The notes below the pieces were generated by a model. That model saw only the letters and a program-made list of their open reading frames with translations. It was not told where the DNA came from and did no database searches. Shown here one piece after another: positions 24,195 to 46,433 of a DNA stretch of 64,000 nucleotides; the stretch's first letter is position 1, and each line of letters opens with the position of its first letter. The DNA is taken from assembly GCF_056746865.1 (NCBI RefSeq), contig NZ_CM163382.1, one strand, 5' to 3'. The position numbers and the translations under genes were made by a program.

Positions 24195-24365
<171 letters not shown>

Positions 24366-28306: not shown

Positions 28307-29116
28307 TCACCCCTGCAATATTTTGTCCATCACGCGCCCCGGCAGCAGGCGCTTAAGCACCATTACTGCCCAGGTCACCAGCGTTACCGGATAGCGCATC
28401 TTCGGTTTCTCGCTAATAAAAGCATGGCGTACTTTGTCGACCACCGCTTCCGGTCCCAACGTAAAGCGGGCGGCGATGCCAGGATTTTCGACTGGTTTAT
28501 CACTTTGCGTCTGGTTGACGTTGTCGGTGAAGCGAGTACGAATGGGACCGGGTTCGATCAGGCTAACTTTAACTCCGCTGTGGCGCAGCTCCATGCGCAG
28601 CGCATCCGACCACGCCTCCAGCGCATATTTACTGGCTGCGTAAGCGCCGCGACCCGGCGTGGAGATTAATCCCATCACCGATGAGGTCATCACAATACGC
28701 CCTTCACCGTGCGGTAACATCGCGGGTAACAGGCGCATGGTGAGCTGGTGAGCGCCGAAAAAGTTGGCAGAAAACTGCTGTTCCATCTGCGCACGGCTGA
28801 TGGTGGAAAGGGGGCCATACATGCCGAATCCGGCATTGTTAAAGATCCCATACAGACAATTATCGGTCAGGGCGATCACTTCGTCGGCTGCGCGATCAAC
28901 ACTTTCTGGTGAATCCAGATCGATCAACACGCCGGTAAATCCCATGCTGTTCATGCGCTCAACATCATCCGGTTTCCGGCAACCTGCCAGCACATGAAAA
29001 CCCTGGCGTTTTAATTCGAGCGCGCTTTCCAGGCCAATTCCACTGGAACATCCGGTAATTAAGACCGATTTTTGCATAACTTTACCTGTCAGGATCTCCG
29101 TTGCTTTATGAGTCAT
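28307..29116 (-). CDS. ybbO: Short-chain dehydrogenase/reductase YbbO
   Basis: 269 aa; SDR glycine motif TGCSSGIG and catalytic YAASK. Confidence 0.9.
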   Translation of the reverse strand: MTHKATEILTGKVMQKSVLITGCSSGIGLESALELKRQGFHVLAGCRKPDDVERMNSMGFTGVLIDLDSPESVDRAADEVIALTDNCLYGIFNNAGFGMYGPLSTISRAQMEQQFSANFFGAHQLTMRLLPAMLPHGEGRIVMTSSVMGLISTPGRGAYAASKYALEAWSDALRMELRHSGVKVSLIEPGPIRTRFTDNVNQTQSDKPVENPGIAARFTLGPEAVVDKVRHAFISEKPKMRYPVTLVTWAVMVLKRLLPGRVMDKILQG

Positions 29117-29732
29117 GATTTACTAAAGGCTGCAACTGCTTCGCCATCCAGTCGGCAATAAACGGCTGGGCGTCGCGGTTGGGATGAATACCGTCATCCT
29201 GCATCCATTGTGGCTTGAGGTAGACCTCTTCCATAAAAAAGGGCAGCAGCGGAACATCAAACTCTTTGGCGAGTTTGGGGTAAATGGCGCTAAAGGCTTC
29301 ATTATAACGGCGACCATAGTTTGCAGGCAGACGTATTTGCATTAACAATGGTTCAGCGTTGGCGGCTTTGACATCCTGCAAAATCTGGCGCAGCGTCTGC
29401 TCGGTTTGTTGTGGCTGAAAACCACGCAAACCGTCATTGCCGCCCAGTTCTACCAGCACCCAGCGCGGCTGATGCTGTTTCAGCAGAGCCGGAAGGCGCG
29501 CCAGCCCTTGTTGCGAGGTGTCGCCGCTGATGCTGGCATTGACTACCGACGTTTTATTCTGCCACTTATCATTCAACAAGGCAGGCCAGGCCGCGCTGGC
29601 AGACATTCGATACCCGGCGCTCAGGCTATCACCCAGAATCAATAACGTGTCCGCTGCGGCGGCACGGAAGGTTAACAGGACCAGGAACAGGAAGGGCAAA
29701 TGCCAGCGGAAAACATTGTTGAAGTTCATCAT
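29106..29732 (-). CDS. tesA: Acyl-CoA thioesterase I / lysophospholipase L1 TesA (SGNH hydrolase)
   Basis: Start placed at MMNFNNVFRWHLPFLFLVLLTFRAAAADTLLILGDSLSAGY; GDSL motif present. Confidence 0.9.
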   Translation of the reverse strand: MMNFNNVFRWHLPFLFLVLLTFRAAAADTLLILGDSLSAGYRMSASAAWPALLNDKWQNKTSVVNASISGDTSQQGLARLPALLKQHQPRWVLVELGGNDGLRGFQPQQTEQTLRQILQDVKAANAEPLLMQIRLPANYGRRYNEAFSAIYPKLAKEFDVPLLPFFMEEVYLKPQWMQDDGIHPNRDAQPFIADWMAKQLQPLVNHDS

Positions 29733-30386
29733 CTTAAGAAGTCCGTCGGTCAGGGGGAGCATGAACTCTCCATCCTCACCGGAGTTGAGCTGGTTGTCAA
29801 ACGTGGCGAGACCATCGCACTGGTGGGCGAGTCGGGATCGGGTAAGTCAACCTTGCTGGCGATCCTCGCCGGGCTGGATGACGGCAGCAGTGGCGAAGTG
29901 AGTCTGGTGGGACAACCGCTACATAATATGGACGAAGAAGCGCGGGCAAAGTTGCGCGCGAAGCACGTCGGCTTTGTTTTTCAGTCATTTATGTTAATTC
30001 CTACCCTTAACGCGCTGGAAAACGTCGAGCTTCCGGCGCTGCTGCGCGGTGAGAGTAGCGCGGAAAGTCGTAACGGAGCGAAAGCGTTGCTCGAACAGTT
30101 AGGGCTGGGTAAACGTCTGGATCATCTTCCGGCACAGCTTTCCGGCGGTGAACAGCAACGAGTGGCGCTGGCACGAGCCTTTAACGGTCGACCTGATGTG
30201 CTGTTTGCCGACGAACCCACCGGCAACCTTGACCGCCAGACCGGCGATAAAATTGCCGACCTGCTGTTTTCCCTCAACCGTGAACATGGCACCACGTTGA
30301 TTATGGTGACCCACGACCTGCAACTGGCGGCACGCTGCGACCGCTGCTTACGGCTGGTGAACGGGCAGTTGCAGGAGGAAGCATGA
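29700..30386 (+). CDS. ybbA: ABC transporter ATP-binding protein YbbA
   Basis: 228 aa; Walker A GESGSGKST, signature LSGGEQQR. Confidence 0.9.
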   Translation: MPAENIVEVHHLKKSVGQGEHELSILTGVELVVKRGETIALVGESGSGKSTLLAILAGLDDGSSGEVSLVGQPLHNMDEEARAKLRAKHVGFVFQSFMLIPTLNALENVELPALLRGESSAESRNGAKALLEQLGLGKRLDHLPAQLSGGEQQRVALARAFNGRPDVLFADEPTGNLDRQTGDKIADLLFSLNREHGTTLIMVTHDLQLAARCDRCLRLVNGQLQEEA

Positions 30387-32797
30387 TTGCACGTTGGTTC
30401 TGGCGCGAATGGCGTTCGCCGTCGCTATTAATTGTCTGGCTGGCGCTAAGCCTGGCGGTGGCCTGCGTGCTGGCGCTGGGCAATATCAGCGATCGCATGG
30501 AGAAGGGCTTAAGCCAACAAAGCCGGGAGTTTATGGCGGGCGATCGGGCGTTGCGCAGTTCGCGCGAAGTGCCGCAAGCATGGCTGGAGGAAGCGCAAAA
30601 GCGCGGCCTGAAAGTCGGCAAGCAGCTGACTTTCGCCACCATGACATTTGCAGGCGACACACCGCAGCTGGCGAACGTTAAAGCGGTGGATGATATCTAC
30701 CCGATGTATGGCGATCTGCAAACCAATCCCCCTGGCCTGAAACCGCAGGCGGGCAGCGTATTGCTGGCCCCACGCCTGATGGCACTGCTTAACCTAAAAA
30801 CGGGCGACACCATTGACGTGGGCGATGCCACCTTGCGGATTGCCGGAGAAGTGATTCAGGAACCGGATTCCGGTTTTAACCCCTTCCAGATGGCTCCGCG
30901 TCTGATGATGAATCTGGCGGATGTCGATAAAACCGGAGCCGTGCAGCCGGGGAGTCGGGTCACCTGGCGCTATAAATTCGGCGGCAACGAGAACCAGCTC
31001 GACAGCTATGAGAAATGGTTGTTACCTCAGCTTAAACCCGAACAACGCTGGTACGGTCTGGAACAGGACGAAGGCGCGCTGGGGCGCTCGATGGAACGCT
31101 CGCAACAGTTCCTGCTGCTTTCGGCGCTTCTGACCTTGCTGCTGGCAGTGGCAGCGGTGGCGGTGGCGATGAATCATTACTGTCGCAGTCGCTACGATCT
31201 TGTGGCGATCCTCAAAACGCTGGGGGCAGGGCGAGCGCAACTGCGTAAGCTAATCGTCGGTCAGTGGTTGATGGTGCTGACGCTTTCAGCCGTTACCGGC
31301 GGGGCGATAGGCCTGTTGTTCGAAAACGTGTTGATGGTGCTGCTCAAGCCCGTTTTGCCTGCTGCACTACCGCCAGCCAGCCTCTGGCCGTGGTTGTGGG
31401 CGCTGGGCACCATGACGGTCATCTCGCTGCTGGTGGGGCTACGACCGTACCGCTTGTTGCTGGCAACCCAGCCTTTACGCGTATTGCGTAATGATGTGGT
31501 CGCGAACGTCTGGCCGCTCAAGTTTTATCTGCCGATTGTCAGTGTGGTGGTTGTGCTGCTGCTCGCCGGATTAATGGGCGGCAGTATGCTGCTCTGGGCG
31601 GTGCTGGCGGGCGCGGTAGTACTGGCTTTGCTGTGCGGTGTGCTGGGCTGGATGCTGCTGAATGTACTTCGCCGCATGACGCTGAAATCGCTACCTCTGC
31701 GCCTGGCGGTTAGCCGCCTGTTACGTCAGCCGTGGTCAACGTTAAGCCAGCTTTCGGCATTTTCGCTCTCCTTTATGCTGCTGGCGCTGTTGCTGGTATT
31801 GCGTGGCGATCTGCTCGACCGCTGGCAACAGCAGCTACCGCCAGAAAGCCCGAACTACTTTTTAATCAACATCGCCACAGAACAGGTAGAACCGCTAAAA
31901 GCGTTCCTCGCGGAACATCAGATAGTCCCGGAATCATTTTATCCGGTGGTGCGGGCGCGACTGACGGCGATTAACGACAAGCCGACAGAAGGCAATGAAG
32001 ATGAGGCGCTTAACCGCGAACTCAATCTTACCTGGCAAAATACGCGGCCCGATCATAATCCGATTGTCGCCGGTAACTGGCCGCCAAAAGCCGATGAAGT
32101 GTCAATGGAAGAGGGGCTGGCGAAACGCTTAAACGTTGCCCTCGGCGATACCGTGACTTTTATGGGCGATACCCAGGAGTTCCGCGCTAAAGTGACCAGC
32201 CTGCGCAAAGTGGACTGGGAAAGTCTGCGGCCTAATTTCTATTTTATTTTCCCTGAAGGGGCATTAGACGGACAACCGCAGAGTTGGCTTACCAGTTTCC
32301 GCTGGGAGAATGGCAACGGCATGTTGACGCAACTCAACCGCCAGTTCCCTACCATTAGCCTGTTAGACATTGGCGCGATTTTAAAACAGGTCGGTCAGGT
32401 GCTGGAGCAGGTAAGTCGGGCGCTGGAAGTGATGGTGGTGCTGGTCACCGCCTGCGGTATGTTGCTGTTGCTGGCACAGGTGCAGGTGGGAATGCGTCAG
32501 CGTCATCAGGAGCTGGTGGTGTGGCGCACACTCGGTGCGGGCAAAAAACTGCTGCGCACGACATTGTGGTGTGAGTTCGCCATGCTCGGGTTTGTATCCG
32601 GCCTGGTGGCCGCAATTGGTGCGGAAACGGCACTGGCGGTACTGCAATCGAAAGTGTTTGATTTCCCGTGGGAGCCAGACTGGCGATTGTGGATTGTTCT
32701 GCCGTGCAGCGGTGCGCTGCTGCTGTCGCTTTGCGGCGGCTGGCTGGGTGCGCGACTGGTTAAGGGTAAGGCGCTATTCAGGCAGTTTGTGGGATGA
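30383..32797 (+). CDS. ybbP: FtsX-like ABC transporter permease YbbP
   Basis: 804 aa, multiple transmembrane segments; start overlaps the ybbA stop. Confidence 0.9.
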   Translation: MIARWFWREWRSPSLLIVWLALSLAVACVLALGNISDRMEKGLSQQSREFMAGDRALRSSREVPQAWLEEAQKRGLKVGKQLTFATMTFAGDTPQLANVKAVDDIYPMYGDLQTNPPGLKPQAGSVLLAPRLMALLNLKTGDTIDVGDATLRIAGEVIQEPDSGFNPFQMAPRLMMNLADVDKTGAVQPGSRVTWRYKFGGNENQLDSYEKWLLPQLKPEQRWYGLEQDEGALGRSMERSQQFLLLSALLTLLLAVAAVAVAMNHYCRSRYDLVAILKTLGAGRAQLRKLIVGQWLMVLTLSAVTGGAIGLLFENVLMVLLKPVLPAALPPASLWPWLWALGTMTVISLLVGLRPYRLLLATQPLRVLRNDVVANVWPLKFYLPIVSVVVVLLLAGLMGGSMLLWAVLAGAVVLALLCGVLGWMLLNVLRRMTLKSLPLRLAVSRLLRQPWSTLSQLSAFSLSFMLLALLLVLRGDLLDRWQQQLPPESPNYFLINIATEQVEPLKAFLAEHQIVPESFYPVVRARLTAINDKPTEGNEDEALNRELNLTWQNTRPDHNPIVAGNWPPKADEVSMEEGLAKRLNVALGDTVTFMGDTQEFRAKVTSLRKVDWESLRPNFYFIFPEGALDGQPQSWLTSFRWENGNGMLTQLNRQFPTISLLDIGAILKQVGQVLEQVSRALEVMVVLVTACGMLLLLAQVQVGMRQRHQELVVWRTLGAGKKLLRTTLWCEFAMLGFVSGLVAAIGAETALAVLQSKVFDFPWEPDWRLWIVLPCSGALLLSLCGGWLGARLVKGKALFRQFVG

Positions 32798-32809: not shown

Positions 32810-32930
32810 GATTGCCTGATGCGCTACGCTTATCAGGCCTACGAGGATCGTGCAATATATTGATTTTGCAAGATTGTGTAGGCCGGATAAGGCGTTTACG
32901 CCGCATCTGGCATGAACAGTGTGCATTTTG
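32810..32930. repeat. REP/BIME palindromic repeats downstream of ybbP
   Basis: gcctgatgcgctacgcttatcaggcctac and gtaggccggataaggcgtttacgccgcatc motifs. Confidence 0.6.
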
Positions 32931-32997: not shown

Positions 32998-33305
32998 TAG
33001 CTACGTTTCCTCAGTTATTCAATAAACTGACGGATCAGTTCCAGCAGCGCGATTAGCGCCTTAAGAACGATGAGAACTGCCTCTCTCCAAATTAGAGCAC
33101 CAGAATCAGCACCACCTGTATCCTGACCAGGACTTAAAAGTACTTTTCCGCACTGCGGTAATCCCTTGAGGCAGTATCACTACTAGCGTCGGGATTGTAT
33201 CGCCAACATAGCTGTTTGAATATGTAGGCATCCTGACTTATAATTCATTTGCTAGATGAGGACTGTTTCATTTCTGCCCGGAACCACCAAGTCTTGGGCG
33301 GAAAA

Positions 33306-33340
33306 AATAAAAAAACCGACTGTCATGTCGGTTTTTTTAT
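33306..33340. terminator. Bidirectional rho-independent terminator downstream of selU
   Basis: aaaaaaaccgac-tgtcat-gtcggttttttt: stem-loop flanked by an A-run and a T-run. Confidence 0.65.
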
Positions 33341-46349: not shown

Positions 46350-46364
46350 ACCTGAATTTACCGC

Positions 46365-46395
46365 AAAAAAAGCCACGGTATAAACCGTGGCAAAA
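46365..46395. terminator. Bidirectional terminator between glxK and allE
   Basis: aaaaaaa-gccacggt-ataa-accgtggc-aaaa. Confidence 0.6.
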
Positions 46396-46433
46396 TCCAA
46401 CATAGCTAAAAATAATCAGGCGAGTGGTATGAC

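What the first reader, a model, noticed from the sequence alone, without database searches (positions are those of the whole stretch)
29700..29732. Divergent tesA and ybbA overlap at their 5' ends
With the starts chosen by protein identity (tesA ATG at 29732 on the minus strand, ybbA ATG at 29700 on the plus strand) the first 33 bp of the two genes overlap on opposite strands. Their promoters must then lie inside each other's coding sequence, with scope for transcriptional interference. This appears to be the conserved arrangement rather than a novelty.
Basis: seen in the sequence. Interest (0 to 1): 0.2.

Follow-up and report, generated by a model that had tools for sequence, protein, structure and literature searches.

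The report
Head-to-head overlap of tesA and ybbA
Two back-to-back E. coli genes, tesA and ybbA, really do share their first 30-33 bases on opposite strands and are transcribed from promoters buried inside each other, but this rare arrangement is already annotated and published, so it is a known curiosity rather than a discovery.

Summary
ybbA starts at ATG 29700 (+), its only workable start. tesA starts at ATG 29732 (K-12 annotation, 208 aa) or ATG 29729 (PGAP, 207 aa) on the minus strand. The coding sequences therefore overlap head-to-head by 33 or 30 bp.

All 18 Enterobacterales loci examined keep a CDS overlap of at least 30 bp by rule-chosen starts. Two rival tesA starts (TTG 29699, no overlap; ATG 29762, 63 bp) are not conserved.

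- The ybbAP transcript starts 342-568 nt upstream of its ATG, inside tesA.
- The divergent tesA transcript starts about 189 nt upstream of its ATG, inside ybbA.
- The two transcripts are complementary over 789 nt.
- dsRNA is detected over the junction, and antisense reads in tesA exceed sense reads.

The pair is listed among 16 divergent "excludons" of E. coli. The operon overlap is noted in the 2025 YbbAP-TesA structure paper. The finding is already known.

One thing I did not find described: across gamma- and betaproteobacteria the pair almost never has intergenic DNA. In 19 of 34 non-enteric genera the two start codons share a palindromic CATG, with interleaved ribosome-binding sites. Whether this junction has a regulatory role is untested.

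The parts
29700..29732 (.). Head-to-head CDS overlap. It is 33 bp with tesA ATG1, or 30 bp (29700-29729) with ATG2. The codons of the two genes are in exact antisense register.
   Evidence: Sequence and ORFs. K-12 and PGAP annotations. Conserved in 15 enteric genera with no third-position excess in either frame.
29106..29732 (-). tesA CDS (208 aa; 207 aa if it starts at 29729). It encodes a periplasmic SGNH/GDSL esterase with a 26-residue signal peptide. The first 11 codons (MMNFNNVFRWH) lie in the overlap.
   Evidence: ORF. Pfam Lipase_GDSL/GDSL_2. PDB chains 1IVN and 9GE8_T begin at residue 27. Annotation.
29700..30386 (+). ybbA CDS (228 aa), the ABC ATPase of the YbbAP type VII transporter. 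ATG 29700 is its only workable start.
   Evidence: ORF list. Pfam ABC_tran. Start-to-Walker A distance is 42 codons, against 37-48 in most orthologues.
29689..29696 (+). ybbA Shine-Dalgarno sequence AGGAAGGG, 3 nt before the ATG. It is encoded antisense to tesA signal-peptide codons 13-15 (Pro-Phe-Leu).
   Evidence: Sequence. The TTCCT core is invariant in 15 enteric genera. A p19-captured 21-nt duplex maps at 518,931-518,954, window 29,674-29,697.
29742..29744 (-). Weak tesA Shine-Dalgarno-like GGA, 9 nt upstream of ATG 29732, inside ybbA codons 15-16.
   Evidence: Sequence. Simple SD scan: 'GGA' in the Escherichia-to-Mangrovibacter loci, none in Yersinia, Rahnella or Photorhabdus.
29697..29699 (-). 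Alternative tesA start TTG (Leu12), directly abutting the ybbA ATG. Gene callers that forbid 5'-5' overlaps choose it, giving a 197-aa TesA.
   Evidence: Absent from the listed tesA-frame starts in 7 of 15 enteric loci (a GTG stands there in Mangrovibacter). It would leave a 15-residue signal peptide with no charged n-region.
29760..29762 (-). Upstream in-frame ATG of the tesA ORF, which would give a 218-aa product and a 63-bp overlap. Judged not to be the start.
   Evidence: Rahnella has TAG immediately before ATG1. Citrobacter sp. FP75, Yersinia, Photorhabdus and Pectobacterium lack this ATG.
29131..29132 (+). Mapped 5' end of the ybbA-ybbP transcript, 568 nt upstream of the ybbA ATG. It lies antisense within the 3' end of tesA.
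   Evidence: Conway operon promoter 518,389, as relayed in Huang Table S1e. Cappable-seq TSS 518,388. Coordinates converted as U00096.2 minus 489,257.
29320..29358 (+). Second plus-strand TSS (29,358), 342 nt upstream of ybbA, with a sigma-70-like promoter TTTGCA-18-AACAAT. It lies inside tesA, antisense.
   Evidence: Cappable-seq TSS 518,615, score 2.45. Relaxed promoter scan.
29916..29950 (-). Inferred 5' end of the tesA(-ybbO) transcript at about 29,921, roughly 189 nt upstream of the tesA ATG. A sigma-70-like promoter sits just upstream: -35 TTTGCC at 29950-29945, 16-nt spacer, -10 TATTAT at 29928-29923. All of this lies inside ybbA, around codons 73-84.
   Evidence: Right-hand end (519,178) of the 789-nt Conway overlap region. 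Promoter elements. No TSS table for this strand could be read, so this is an inference.
29132..29921 (.). The 789-nt region transcribed on both strands. It is the complementary 5' parts of the tesA and ybbAP transcripts.
   Evidence: Conway overlap length 789, type 'Divergent'. In wild type, tesA has 48.7 RPM antisense against 29.7 RPM sense.
29638..29763 (.). Immunoprecipitated dsRNA locus MS-118 (Lybecker et al.), category 'Divergent', centred on the CDS overlap.
   Evidence: U00096.2 518,895-519,020, as tabulated in Huang Table S1e.
29427..29700 (.). p19-captured RNase III dsRNA cluster S-52, genes 'tesA ybbA', overlap type "5' & Full".
   Evidence: U00096.2 518,684-518,957. Per-gene p19 dsRNA for tesA is 182-2396 RPM, against 6-86 RPM for ybbO, ybbA and ybbP.
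30383..32797 (+). ybbP CDS (804 aa, FtsX-domain permease). It is co-transcribed with ybbA and overlaps it by 4 bp (ATGA).
   Evidence: The operon terminator at 522,176 lies beyond ybbP.
28307..29116 (-). ybbO CDS (short-chain dehydrogenase), downstream of tesA on the same strand. It overlaps the tesA 3' end by 11 bp.
   Evidence: Described as a putative tesA-ybbO operon.

Best explanation
This is a genuine, conserved head-to-head dual-coding junction between tesA and ybbA-ybbP. tesA encodes a periplasmic esterase. YbbAP is the type VII ABC transporter that the esterase docks onto.

Shown:
- ybbA begins at ATG 29700. tesA begins at ATG 29732 or 29729. The first 10-11 codons of each gene are written on the complement of the other.
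- The ybbA ribosome-binding site lies inside tesA codons 13-15.
- There is no intergenic DNA.

Shown by published K-12 data:
- The promoters face each other from inside the partner gene.
- ybbAP RNA starts at window ~29,132 and 29,358, and runs antisense through most of tesA.
- The divergent tesA transcript starts at about 29,921, inside ybbA.
- The two RNAs are complementary over 789 nt.
- dsRNA forms in vivo over the junction and yields RNase III-type 21-22-nt duplexes.

Inferred:
- Polymerases from the two face-to-face promoter sets must traverse each other's promoter and 5' region, so collision or occlusion, together with dsRNA processing, damps both genes reciprocally. This is excludon-type coupling.
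- I judge a measurable reciprocal effect about 50% likely, and a true on/off switch unlikely.
- The enteric 30-33-bp overlap probably derives from an older state, still found in most gamma- and betaproteobacteria, in which the two start codons share a CATG or abut. In that scenario the tesA start later moved about 10 codons upstream into ybbA.
For: - Sequence and ORFs.
- Reference annotations with 33-bp and 30-bp overlaps.
- The locus is present in 5,418 of 5,426 complete E. coli genomes.
[quoted passage not shown] Where ybbA His11 becomes Arg, tesA ATG1 is lost but ATG2 stays. Where His10 becomes Gln, ATG2 is lost but ATG1 stays. Outside the enterics these YbbA positions are not His..
- tesA Arg9, the only basic residue of the signal-peptide n-region, is invariant, even where the opposite ybbA codon changes Ala to Thr.
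- Variable sites in the overlap are 6/5/5 of 11 by codon position, against 11/7/18 of 20 in the adjacent ybbA-only region. This is as expected if both frames are read.
- Mature TesA begins at residue 27 in PDB entries.
- Transcript maps: Conway promoter 518,389, overlap 789 nt, 'Divergent'. Cappable-seq plus-strand TSSs at 518,388 and 518,615, with none closer to ybbA.
- Sigma-70-like elements lie at both places.
- dsRNA: Lybecker locus 518,895-519,020 and p19 cluster 518,684-518,957. tesA p19 reads are 182-2396 RPM against 6-86 RPM for its neighbours. tesA antisense is 48.7 RPM against 29.7 RPM sense, while its neighbours have about 1 RPM antisense.
- Listed as a divergent excludon.
- Family-wide lack of intergenic DNA: 63 of 77 scored loci have start codons overlapping or no more than 11 bp apart.
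Against: - No experiment read here fixes the tesA initiation codon. Only the processed N-terminus is known.
- The covariation and codon-position tests rest on 15 sequences and are suggestive, not decisive.
- The tesA transcript start at ~29,921 is inferred from the end of an overlap interval in a secondary table. The minus-strand TSS tables were not readable.
- All mapped plus-strand TSSs are weak (Cappable-seq scores 1.6-2.5).
- The default consensus promoter scan found nothing in 29,300-30,100.
- On regulation: in two RNase III mutants, tesA sense reads do not rise (29.7 against 27.2 and 27.4 RPM) and ybbA sense reads fall slightly (21.7 against 13.6 and 17.1 RPM). These are one value per strain in the table. 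RNase III-dependent repression is therefore not evident.
- The two products work in one complex, which fits awkwardly with mutually exclusive expression.
Confidence: 0.78

Rival explanations
1. The overlap is an annotation artefact. On this view tesA is translated from TTG 29699 (Leu12), so the two genes merely abut (CAA|ATG), and the upstream ATGs are an accidental open stretch on the complement of ybbA.
For: - Many database entries call a 194-197-aa TesA starting MPFLFL....
- All divergent overlaps over 60 bp examined by Palleja et al. were start-codon misannotations.
- A zero-gap junction would resemble Pseudoalteromonas and Aliidiomarina (CATATG).
- The Shine-Dalgarno sequence upstream of ATG1/ATG2 is weak.
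Against: - The short calls are what Prodigal must produce, because it forbids 5'-5' overlaps.
- No ATG, GTG or TTG is listed at the Leu12 position in 7 of 15 enteric loci (C. werkmanii, Erwinia, Rahnella, Yersinia, two Photorhabdus, Acerihabitans), whereas an ATG at position 1 or 2 is present in all 15.
- A TTG start would give a 15-residue signal peptide lacking the invariant Arg9.
- The overlap lacks the third-position excess expected if only ybbA were read.
- K-12 and PGAP curation both keep an ATG start.
Confidence: 0.08
2. The overlap is longer than annotated. On this view tesA starts at ATG 29762 (218 aa, MLPLTDGLLKMMNF...), giving a 63-bp overlap.
For: - It is the first start codon of the ORF.
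- By eye it has the best Shine-Dalgarno sequence of the three ATGs (GGAGAG, 3 nt upstream).
- Several database calls of 218-220 aa use it.
Against: - It is not conserved. Rahnella has a stop codon directly before ATG1. Citrobacter sp. FP75, Yersinia, Photorhabdus and Pectobacterium lack the ATG.
- The apparent conservation of LTDG... is explained by ybbA coding (SVGQGE) on the other strand.
- It would give an atypical 36-residue signal peptide with an acidic N-terminus.
Confidence: 0.03
3. The overlap and the antisense transcription are real but have no regulatory role. On this view it is a frozen, self-locking layout. Once two divergent genes lose their spacer, each promoter and ribosome-binding site sits inside the partner gene, so the layout can only change by rare start-codon shifts. 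The dsRNA is then a harmless by-product.
For: - RNase III mutants show no rise in tesA or ybbA sense reads.
- 35% of divergent E. coli operon pairs overlap at their 5' ends, so such overlap is commonplace.
- Several lineages (Aeromonas, Marinobacter, Porticoccus, Salinicola) have opened gaps of about 60-440 bp and still keep the pair.
- Pectobacterium tolerates a 45-bp insertion inside the overlap.
- Both genes are weakly expressed.
Against: - The spacer-free junction is retained across two proteobacterial classes while the flanking N-terminal sequences have diverged beyond recognition. An in-frame CATG is present in 19 of 34 non-enteric genera, against about 9% expected by chance.
- The 789-nt overlap is far above the 168-nt mean for overlapping divergent operons.
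- tesA is a strong dsRNA hot spot.
- The genes encode partners of one complex.
Confidence: 0.4

Closest known systems
Divergent excludons (overlapping 5' transcripts of divergent neighbours; ExcludonFinder map of E. coli MG1655)
   Same: - Divergent neighbours whose transcripts overlap at the 5' ends.
- dsRNA is detected.
- tesA-ybbA is itself one of the 16 divergent excludons listed.
   Different: - Classical excludons overlap in 5' UTRs across an intergenic region. ExcludonFinder reports a mean intergenic distance of 95 nt for E. coli excludons. Here the coding sequences themselves overlap and there is no intergenic DNA.
- Mutually exclusive expression, the functional hallmark, has not been shown for this pair.
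- The products are partners in one complex rather than opposing functions.
5'-overlapping divergent operons of E. coli K-12 (Conway et al. 2014), e.g. asd-yhgN, cyaA-hemC, rob
   Same: - Face-to-face promoters produce complementary 5' RNA.
- These regions are enriched in p19-captured RNase III products.
   Different: The overlap here is 789 nt, against a mean of 168 nt and a maximum of 1,012 nt. It spans almost the whole tesA CDS.
Head-to-head (divergent) overlapping protein-coding genes in prokaryote surveys
   Same: - Opposite strands with 5' ends overlapping.
- Phase 123:321 for the enteric 30/33-bp form.
- Phase 123:213, the commonest divergent phase, for the CATG form.
   Different: - Most reported divergent overlaps are suspected start misannotations, including all those over 60 bp.
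- This one is supported by ortholog conservation, and both genes have characterised products.
YbbAP-TesA type VII ABC transporter-hydrolase gene cluster (PLoS Biol 2025; PDB 9GE6-9GE8)
   Same: - The same genes in the same divergent layout.
[quoted passage not shown]
   Different: In the passages I searched, the paper does not analyse start codons, promoters, antisense RNA, or the nucleotide-level junction (CATG sharing) across taxa.

Membership tests
Head-to-head overlapping CDS pair | Two adjacent protein-coding genes on opposite strands, transcribed away from each other | tested here: met
   tesA is on the minus strand and ybbA on the plus strand. Both have Pfam domains above the gathering threshold.
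Head-to-head overlapping CDS pair | The true start codons lie such that the 5' coding ends overlap | tested here: met
   - The ybbA start is unambiguous.
- The tesA ATG1/ATG2 start is supported by conservation in 15 genera, the invariant Arg9, and the codon-position pattern. The rival starts are not conserved.
- No direct initiation-site experiment was available.
Head-to-head overlapping CDS pair | The overlap is conserved in orthologous loci, so it is not a lineage-specific annotation quirk | tested here: met
   All 18 Enterobacterales loci have a CDS overlap of at least 30 bp by rule-chosen starts. Among non-enteric loci, 24 share a CATG and 4 more overlap by 20 bp or more.
Divergent excludon | Transcripts of the divergent neighbours overlap at their 5' ends | tested here: met
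   Taken from published data, not measured here. The evidence is the Conway 789-nt overlap, the Cappable-seq plus-strand TSSs inside tesA, and the ExcludonFinder listing, which requires detection in at least 50% of 58 transcriptomes.
Divergent excludon | The overlapping RNAs pair in vivo and are processed by RNase III | tested here: met
   Taken from published data. The evidence is dsRNA-IP locus MS-118, p19 cluster S-52, and individual 21-22-nt duplexes within tesA.
Divergent excludon | Reciprocal (mutually exclusive) expression: raising one transcript lowers the other | not testable with these tools
   - No perturbation data for this pair were found.
- RNA-seq values from RNase III mutants show no derepression, which argues against one arm of the mechanism.
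- Those are one value per strain in the table.
YbbAP-TesA type VII ABC system gene cluster | An ABC ATPase gene followed by a long FtsX-domain permease gene, next to a signal-peptide-bearing SGNH/GDSL esterase gene | tested here: met
   - Pfam finds ABC_tran, FtsX and Lipase_GDSL.
- The window is 100% identical to annotated E. coli loci.
- A PDB 9GE8 chain matches residues 27-208.
- The same trio is present in nearly all of the 80 loci. YbbP was not detected in two betaproteobacterial loci, and the genes are degraded in one symbiont.

The most novel reading that the evidence does not exclude
The spacer-free head-to-head junction may be an ancient, selectively maintained expression-coupling device, not a frozen accident.

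The junction takes several forms:
- start codons sharing a palindromic CATG in many gamma- and betaproteobacteria;
- 30-78-bp dual coding in Enterobacterales and Shewanella;
- ribosome-binding sites interleaved within about 30 bp;
- promoters embedded in the partner gene.

On this reading, obligatory antisense 5' leaders tie synthesis of the periplasmic hydrolase TesA to that of its ABC-transporter partner YbbAP. They might set their ratio, or make high expression of one limit the other. That would make it a deeply conserved excludon linking subunits of a single complex. I did not find the nucleotide-level conservation described in the papers I read.
Probability: 0.25. Interest if true: 0.5.

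Novelty: already known. Interest (0 to 1): 0.2.

Why it matters
For E. coli, this finding adds nothing to what is already annotated and published. It has three practical uses.

1. It is a well-supported example of a real divergent CDS overlap, a class usually dismissed as misannotation.

2. It is an annotation trap. Prodigal cannot'-5' overlaps, so public protein sets carry truncated TesA entries (194-197 aa) as well as run-on ones (286-402 aa). The same will happen at the 2-nt CATG junction in other taxa.

3. Anyone engineering tesA, which is widely used for fatty-acid production, or deleting ybbA or ybbP, should know three things:
- The first 10-11 codons are shared.
- The ybbA ribosome-binding site lies in the tesA signal-peptide codons.
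- The tesA promoter appears to lie about 190 nt inside ybbA, and the ybbAP promoters inside tesA.

A clean deletion of one gene is therefore likely to disturb expression of the other, which could confound phenotypes assigned to YbbAP or TesA.

If the family-wide junction proves to be functional, it would be a tractable model for antisense coupling between partners of one complex.

Tried and rejected
- The default consensus promoter scan of 29,300-30,100 found no sigma-70 site. Only a relaxed scan found elements at the published transcript ends.
- TSS tables:
  - The ROSE paper supplement has no entry for these genes.
  - The ExcludonFinder and Conway supplements are not held.
  - The PMC id I tried for Thomason et al. 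2015 returned nothing.
  - The held part of the Cappable-seq file covers only plus-strand TSSs up to about 1 Mb, so no minus-strand (tesA) TSS could be read.
  - The tesA transcript start is therefore taken indirectly from the Conway overlap interval.
- Rfam found no RNA family at the locus.
- Start at ATG 29762: rejected, because it is not conserved.
- Start at TTG 29699: rejected as the main start, because it is not conserved and lacks an n-region.
- Hairpin idea: I considered whether the SD-start/start-SD quasi-palindrome around CATG could fold into a hairpin that hides each gene's SD. I did not pursue it. The stems would be only 4-5 bp with loops over 20 nt, and the two SDs are not symmetrically spaced.
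- I did not try to count all head-to-head CDS overlaps in K-12, because the annotation can only be read 50 kb at a time. I relied on published surveys instead.
- Starts in non-model taxa come from simple rules: the distance to the GDSL and Walker A motifs, and a basic residue before a hydrophobic run. In Halomonas, Massilia, Janthinobacterium and Pseudomonas more than one start is plausible, so those loci are ambiguous.
Full report
WHAT IS THERE

The window is Escherichia coli. Positions 29,000-30,500 are 100% identical to strain 118UI, and the stretch occurs in 5,418 of 5,426 complete E. coli genomes.

On the plus strand an ORF runs 29700..30386 (228 aa, ybbA). Its ATG is the first start codon after the in-frame stop. 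From the sequence and translation, the next in-frame start is GTG at codon 42, directly before the Walker A motif, so 29700 is the only workable start.

On the minus strand the tesA ORF runs 29106..29762. It has ATGs at 29762, 29732 and 29729, and a TTG at 29699.

The tesA His11 codon CAT is the complement of the ybbA ATG. The ybbA His10-His11 codons CAT CAT are the complement of the tesA ATG ATG.

The K-12 reference annotation has the same 33-bp overlap: tesA 519,139-519,765 and ybbA 519,733-520,419. PGAP starts tesA at the second ATG in the genome identical to the window, which gives 30 bp.

Pfam confirms a GDSL/SGNH esterase, an ABC ATPase, an FtsX-domain permease (ybbP) and a short-chain dehydrogenase (ybbO).

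WHICH tesA START IS REAL

Public protein sets disagree. TesA is called at 189-197, 204-210, 214-220 and even 286-402 residues.

I scanned one genome per species with a TesA alignment and obtained 80 loci. Nearly every locus has a YbbA homologue immediately upstream on the opposite strand, and in almost all it is followed by ybbP. The exceptions are:
- one symbiont with degraded genes;
- one locus where ybbA is split in two pieces;
- one locus where the genes lie about 440 bp apart;
- two betaproteobacterial loci in which tblastn did not detect ybbP.

In 15 enteric genera aligned on the ybbA ATG:
- The upstream ATG (29762 in the window) is not conserved. Rahnella has TAG directly before ATG1, and several genera lack the ATG.
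- No start codon is listed at the Leu12 position in 7 of the 15 loci.

There is covariation. Where YbbA His11 becomes Arg, tesA ATG1 becomes ACG and ATG2 remains. Where His10 becomes Gln, ATG2 becomes CTG and ATG1 remains. Outside the enterics these YbbA positions are Gln, Ser, Arg, Lys or Asp, not His.

tesA Arg9 is the only basic residue of the signal-peptide n-region. It is invariant even where the opposite ybbA codon changes Ala to Thr.

Variable sites in the overlap are spread 6/5/5 of 11 over the three codon positions. The neighbouring ybbA-only stretch shows the usual third-position excess, 11/7/18 of 20. Changes synonymous only in tesA (3) equal those synonymous only in ybbA (3). The sample is small, but this is the pattern expected if both frames are translated.

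PDB chains of TesA begin at residue 27 of the 208-residue numbering, consistent with a 26-residue signal peptide.

The short 194-197-residue calls are explained by software. [quoted passage not shown]

I put the probability of a real overlap of at least 30 bp at about 0.85-0.9. I cannot choose between 33 and 30 bp.

WHERE THE PROMOTERS ARE

Published K-12 data also support it.

Coordinates convert as window = U00096.2 - 489,257. The window and K-12 differ at 13 of 1,701 positions here, with no indels and no differences in the overlap or at the sites below.

- Huang et al. 2020, Table S1e, relays the Conway et al. operon map. A plus-strand operon runs from a promoter at 518,389 (window 29,132) to a terminator at 522,176, beyond ybbP. 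It overlaps the divergent annotated operon by 789 nt, over 518,389-519,178 (window 29,132-29,921).
- Cappable-seq independently lists plus-strand TSSs at 518,388, 518,615 and 518,168. It lists none between 518,615 and 523,635.
- ybbA mRNA therefore has a 342-568-nt leader (789 nt from the furthest TSS) that is antisense to tesA.
- The tesA transcript begins about 189 nt upstream of its ATG, inside ybbA.
- A relaxed scan finds TTTGCC-16-TATTAT just upstream of the inferred tesA 5' end, and TTTGCA-18-AACAAT upstream of the 29,358 TSS. The default scan found nothing.

The same table gives further evidence:
- An immunoprecipitated dsRNA locus (Lybecker MS-118, 'Divergent') lies at window 29,638-29,763, centred on the CDS overlap.
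- A p19-captured RNase III cluster lies at 29,427-29,700.
- Individual 21-22-nt duplexes occur across tesA, including one over the ybbA Shine-Dalgarno sequence.
- Per-gene p19 reads are 182-2396 RPM for tesA, against 6-86 RPM for ybbO, ybbA and ybbP.
- Wild-type RNA-seq gives 29.7 RPM sense and 48.7 RPM antisense for tesA, while its neighbours have about 1 RPM antisense.

ExcludonFinder lists tesA-ybbA among the 16 divergent excludons of MG1655.

For context, 136 of 388 divergent operon pairs in K-12 overlap at their 5' ends. The mean overlap is 168 nt and the longest is 1,012 nt. Transcript overlap is therefore common, but this one is long.

HOW IT PROBABLY WORKS

Shown:
- dual coding of the first 10-11 codons;
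- the ybbA ribosome-binding site embedded in tesA codons 13-15, with a TTCCT core invariant in 15 genera;
- face-to-face promoters inside the partner genes;
- complementary RNAs that pair in vivo.

Inferred: polymerases from each side must cross the other promoter and 5' region. Collision or occlusion, together with dsRNA processing, should then damp both genes reciprocally.

Points against a strong effect:
- In two RNase III mutants, tesA sense reads are unchanged (27.2 and 27.4 against 29.7 RPM).
- ybbA sense reads fall rather than rise (13.6 and 17.1 against 21.7 RPM). The table gives one value per strain.
- TesA and YbbAP work as one complex. Mutual exclusion sits awkwardly with that.

I therefore rate a measurable reciprocal effect at about 0.5. 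I keep a neutral, self-locking layout as a serious rival.

THE WIDER PATTERN

I chose starts by simple rules: the distance to the GDSL and Walker A motifs, and a basic residue before a hydrophobic run. With those starts, 63 of 77 scored loci have start codons that overlap or lie no more than 11 bp apart, and 72 of 77 lie within 70 bp.

All 18 Enterobacterales loci overlap by at least 30 bp.

Among the 61 non-enteric loci, 24 have the two ATGs sharing a palindromic CATG (a 2-nt overlap), and 6 abut with a gap of 0-2 bp.

An in-frame CATG at the ybbA start is present in 36 loci from 19 of 34 genera. These include Vibrio, Photobacterium, Psychromonas, Rheinheimera, Marinobacterium, Halomonas, Dokdonella, Cycloclasticus, Pseudomonas and the betaproteobacterium Massilia.

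Chance would give about 9% per lineage. Internal ybbA Met codons are preceded by C in 28% of cases, and one frame in three fits. The binomial P is about 1e-11 at genus level, although lineages are not independent.

Around the CATG the flanks are unconserved, except for purine-rich Shine-Dalgarno-like motifs 6-9 nt to the left (for tesA) and TCCTT-like complements to the right (for ybbA). The two ribosome-binding sites are therefore interleaved within about 30 bp, and the mRNAs must be leadered.

In Pseudomonas the published 21-residue signal peptide fits a downstream ATG, which leaves a 10-bp gap.

Shewanella has CATA in place of CATG, and only an upstream ATG, giving a 35-bp overlap. Pectobacterium has a 45-bp insertion inside the overlap that lengthens both N-termini, giving a 78-bp or 51-bp overlap.

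The enteric state thus looks derived from a CATG or abutting ancestor by an upstream shift of the tesA start. This is inference.

COMPARISON WITH WHAT IS KNOWN, AND VERDICT

Divergent overlaps are the rarest class, about 1% of well-characterised overlaps. All those over 60 bp were judged to be misannotations. They are strongly under-represented, presumably because initiation signals are demanding.

This pair is a well-supported exception, but it is not new:
- It is in the reference annotation.
- The operon overlap is stated in the YbbAP-TesA paper.
- The transcript overlap and dsRNA are in three published datasets.
- It is named as a divergent excludon.

No Rfam family lies at the locus.

Novelty: already known. 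Interest is low (0.2).

The family-wide CATG junction and the consequences for annotation and engineering are the only parts I did not find described. The CATG result rests on rule-based start assignments that need experimental or model-based confirmation.

Noticed in passing
L020-L082 (e.g. L020 3952-3955, L022 3991-3994, L052 4024-4027, L065 3982-3985): Outside Enterobacterales the tesA and ybbA start codons share a palindromic CATG (a 2-nt overlap). This holds in 24 of 61 loci by rule-chosen starts. An in-frame CATG occurs in 36 loci from 19 of 34 genera across gamma- and betaproteobacteria. The Shine-Dalgarno motifs of both genes are interleaved within about 30 bp. I did not find this described in the papers I read.
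   Followed up: yes
L013 and L014, 4001-4078 (Pectobacterium): A 45-bp insertion inside the overlap lengthens both N-termini (TesA MMNFKNVFYVRSFAWRSTRWAGLRKHVF..., YbbA MFAKTSPASATPSKTAHVEN...). The only ybbA start is now 4078. The overlap is 78 bp, or 51 bp if tesA uses GTG 4028. That is above the 60-bp limit beyond which divergent overlaps were reported to be artefacts.
   Followed up: partly
L062 and L063, 3920-3955 (Shewanella); L082 (Parashewanella): The shared CATG has become CATA. The only canonical upstream tesA start (ATG 3920) gives a 35-bp overlap and an unusually long signal peptide. This parallels the enteric state. Use of a non-canonical ATA start cannot be excluded.
   Followed up: partly
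Protein ids P0002, P0003, P0043, P0060, P0063, P0067, P0068, P0079, P0095, P0121: Public protein collections hold TesA entries with clearly wrong starts. Some are truncated (189-197 aa, from internal TTG or other codons). Others are run-on ORFs of 286-402 aa that read antisense through ybbA. The truncations match Prodigal's rule that 5' ends of opposite-strand genes may not overlap.
   Followed up: partly
window 29922-29929: The sequence CATAATAT is nearly symmetric. It reads TATTAT on the minus strand, the candidate tesA -10 element, and CATAAT on the plus strand, where the scan finds a promoter-like hit with a TSS near 29,934. It might fire in both directions, from inside ybbA.
   Followed up: no
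window 29728 (+): Dornenburg et al. list a weak antisense TSS (6 reads, -10 match 4/6) at U00096.2 518,985. That is 28 nt inside ybbA and opposite the tesA start codons. It cannot encode full-length YbbA.
   Followed up: no
L027 (Vibrio mexicanus), L019 (Ca. Pantoea persica), L079 (Halomonas sulfidaeris), L056 (Salinicola tamaricis): Four exceptions to the tight junction:
- L027: the tesA frame is out of register with the CATG, through a frameshift or an assembly error.
- L019: only fragments of ybbA and ybbP remain in a symbiont.
- L079: ybbA is split into two tblastn pieces.
- L056: the two genes lie about 440 bp apart.
   Followed up: no
window 29106-29116 and 30383-30386: The same-strand neighbours also overlap. 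The ybbO start overlaps the tesA 3' end by 11 bp. ybbA and ybbP overlap by 4 bp (ATGA), the usual translational-coupling geometry.
   Followed up: no
window 24241-24318 (-), 32835-32877 (-), 33252-33340 (+), 46361-46427 (+): Rfam matches above the gathering score elsewhere in the window: naRNA4, ES036, AgrB and STnc480. None touches the tesA-ybbA junction. Two of them lie just downstream of ybbP.
   Followed up: no
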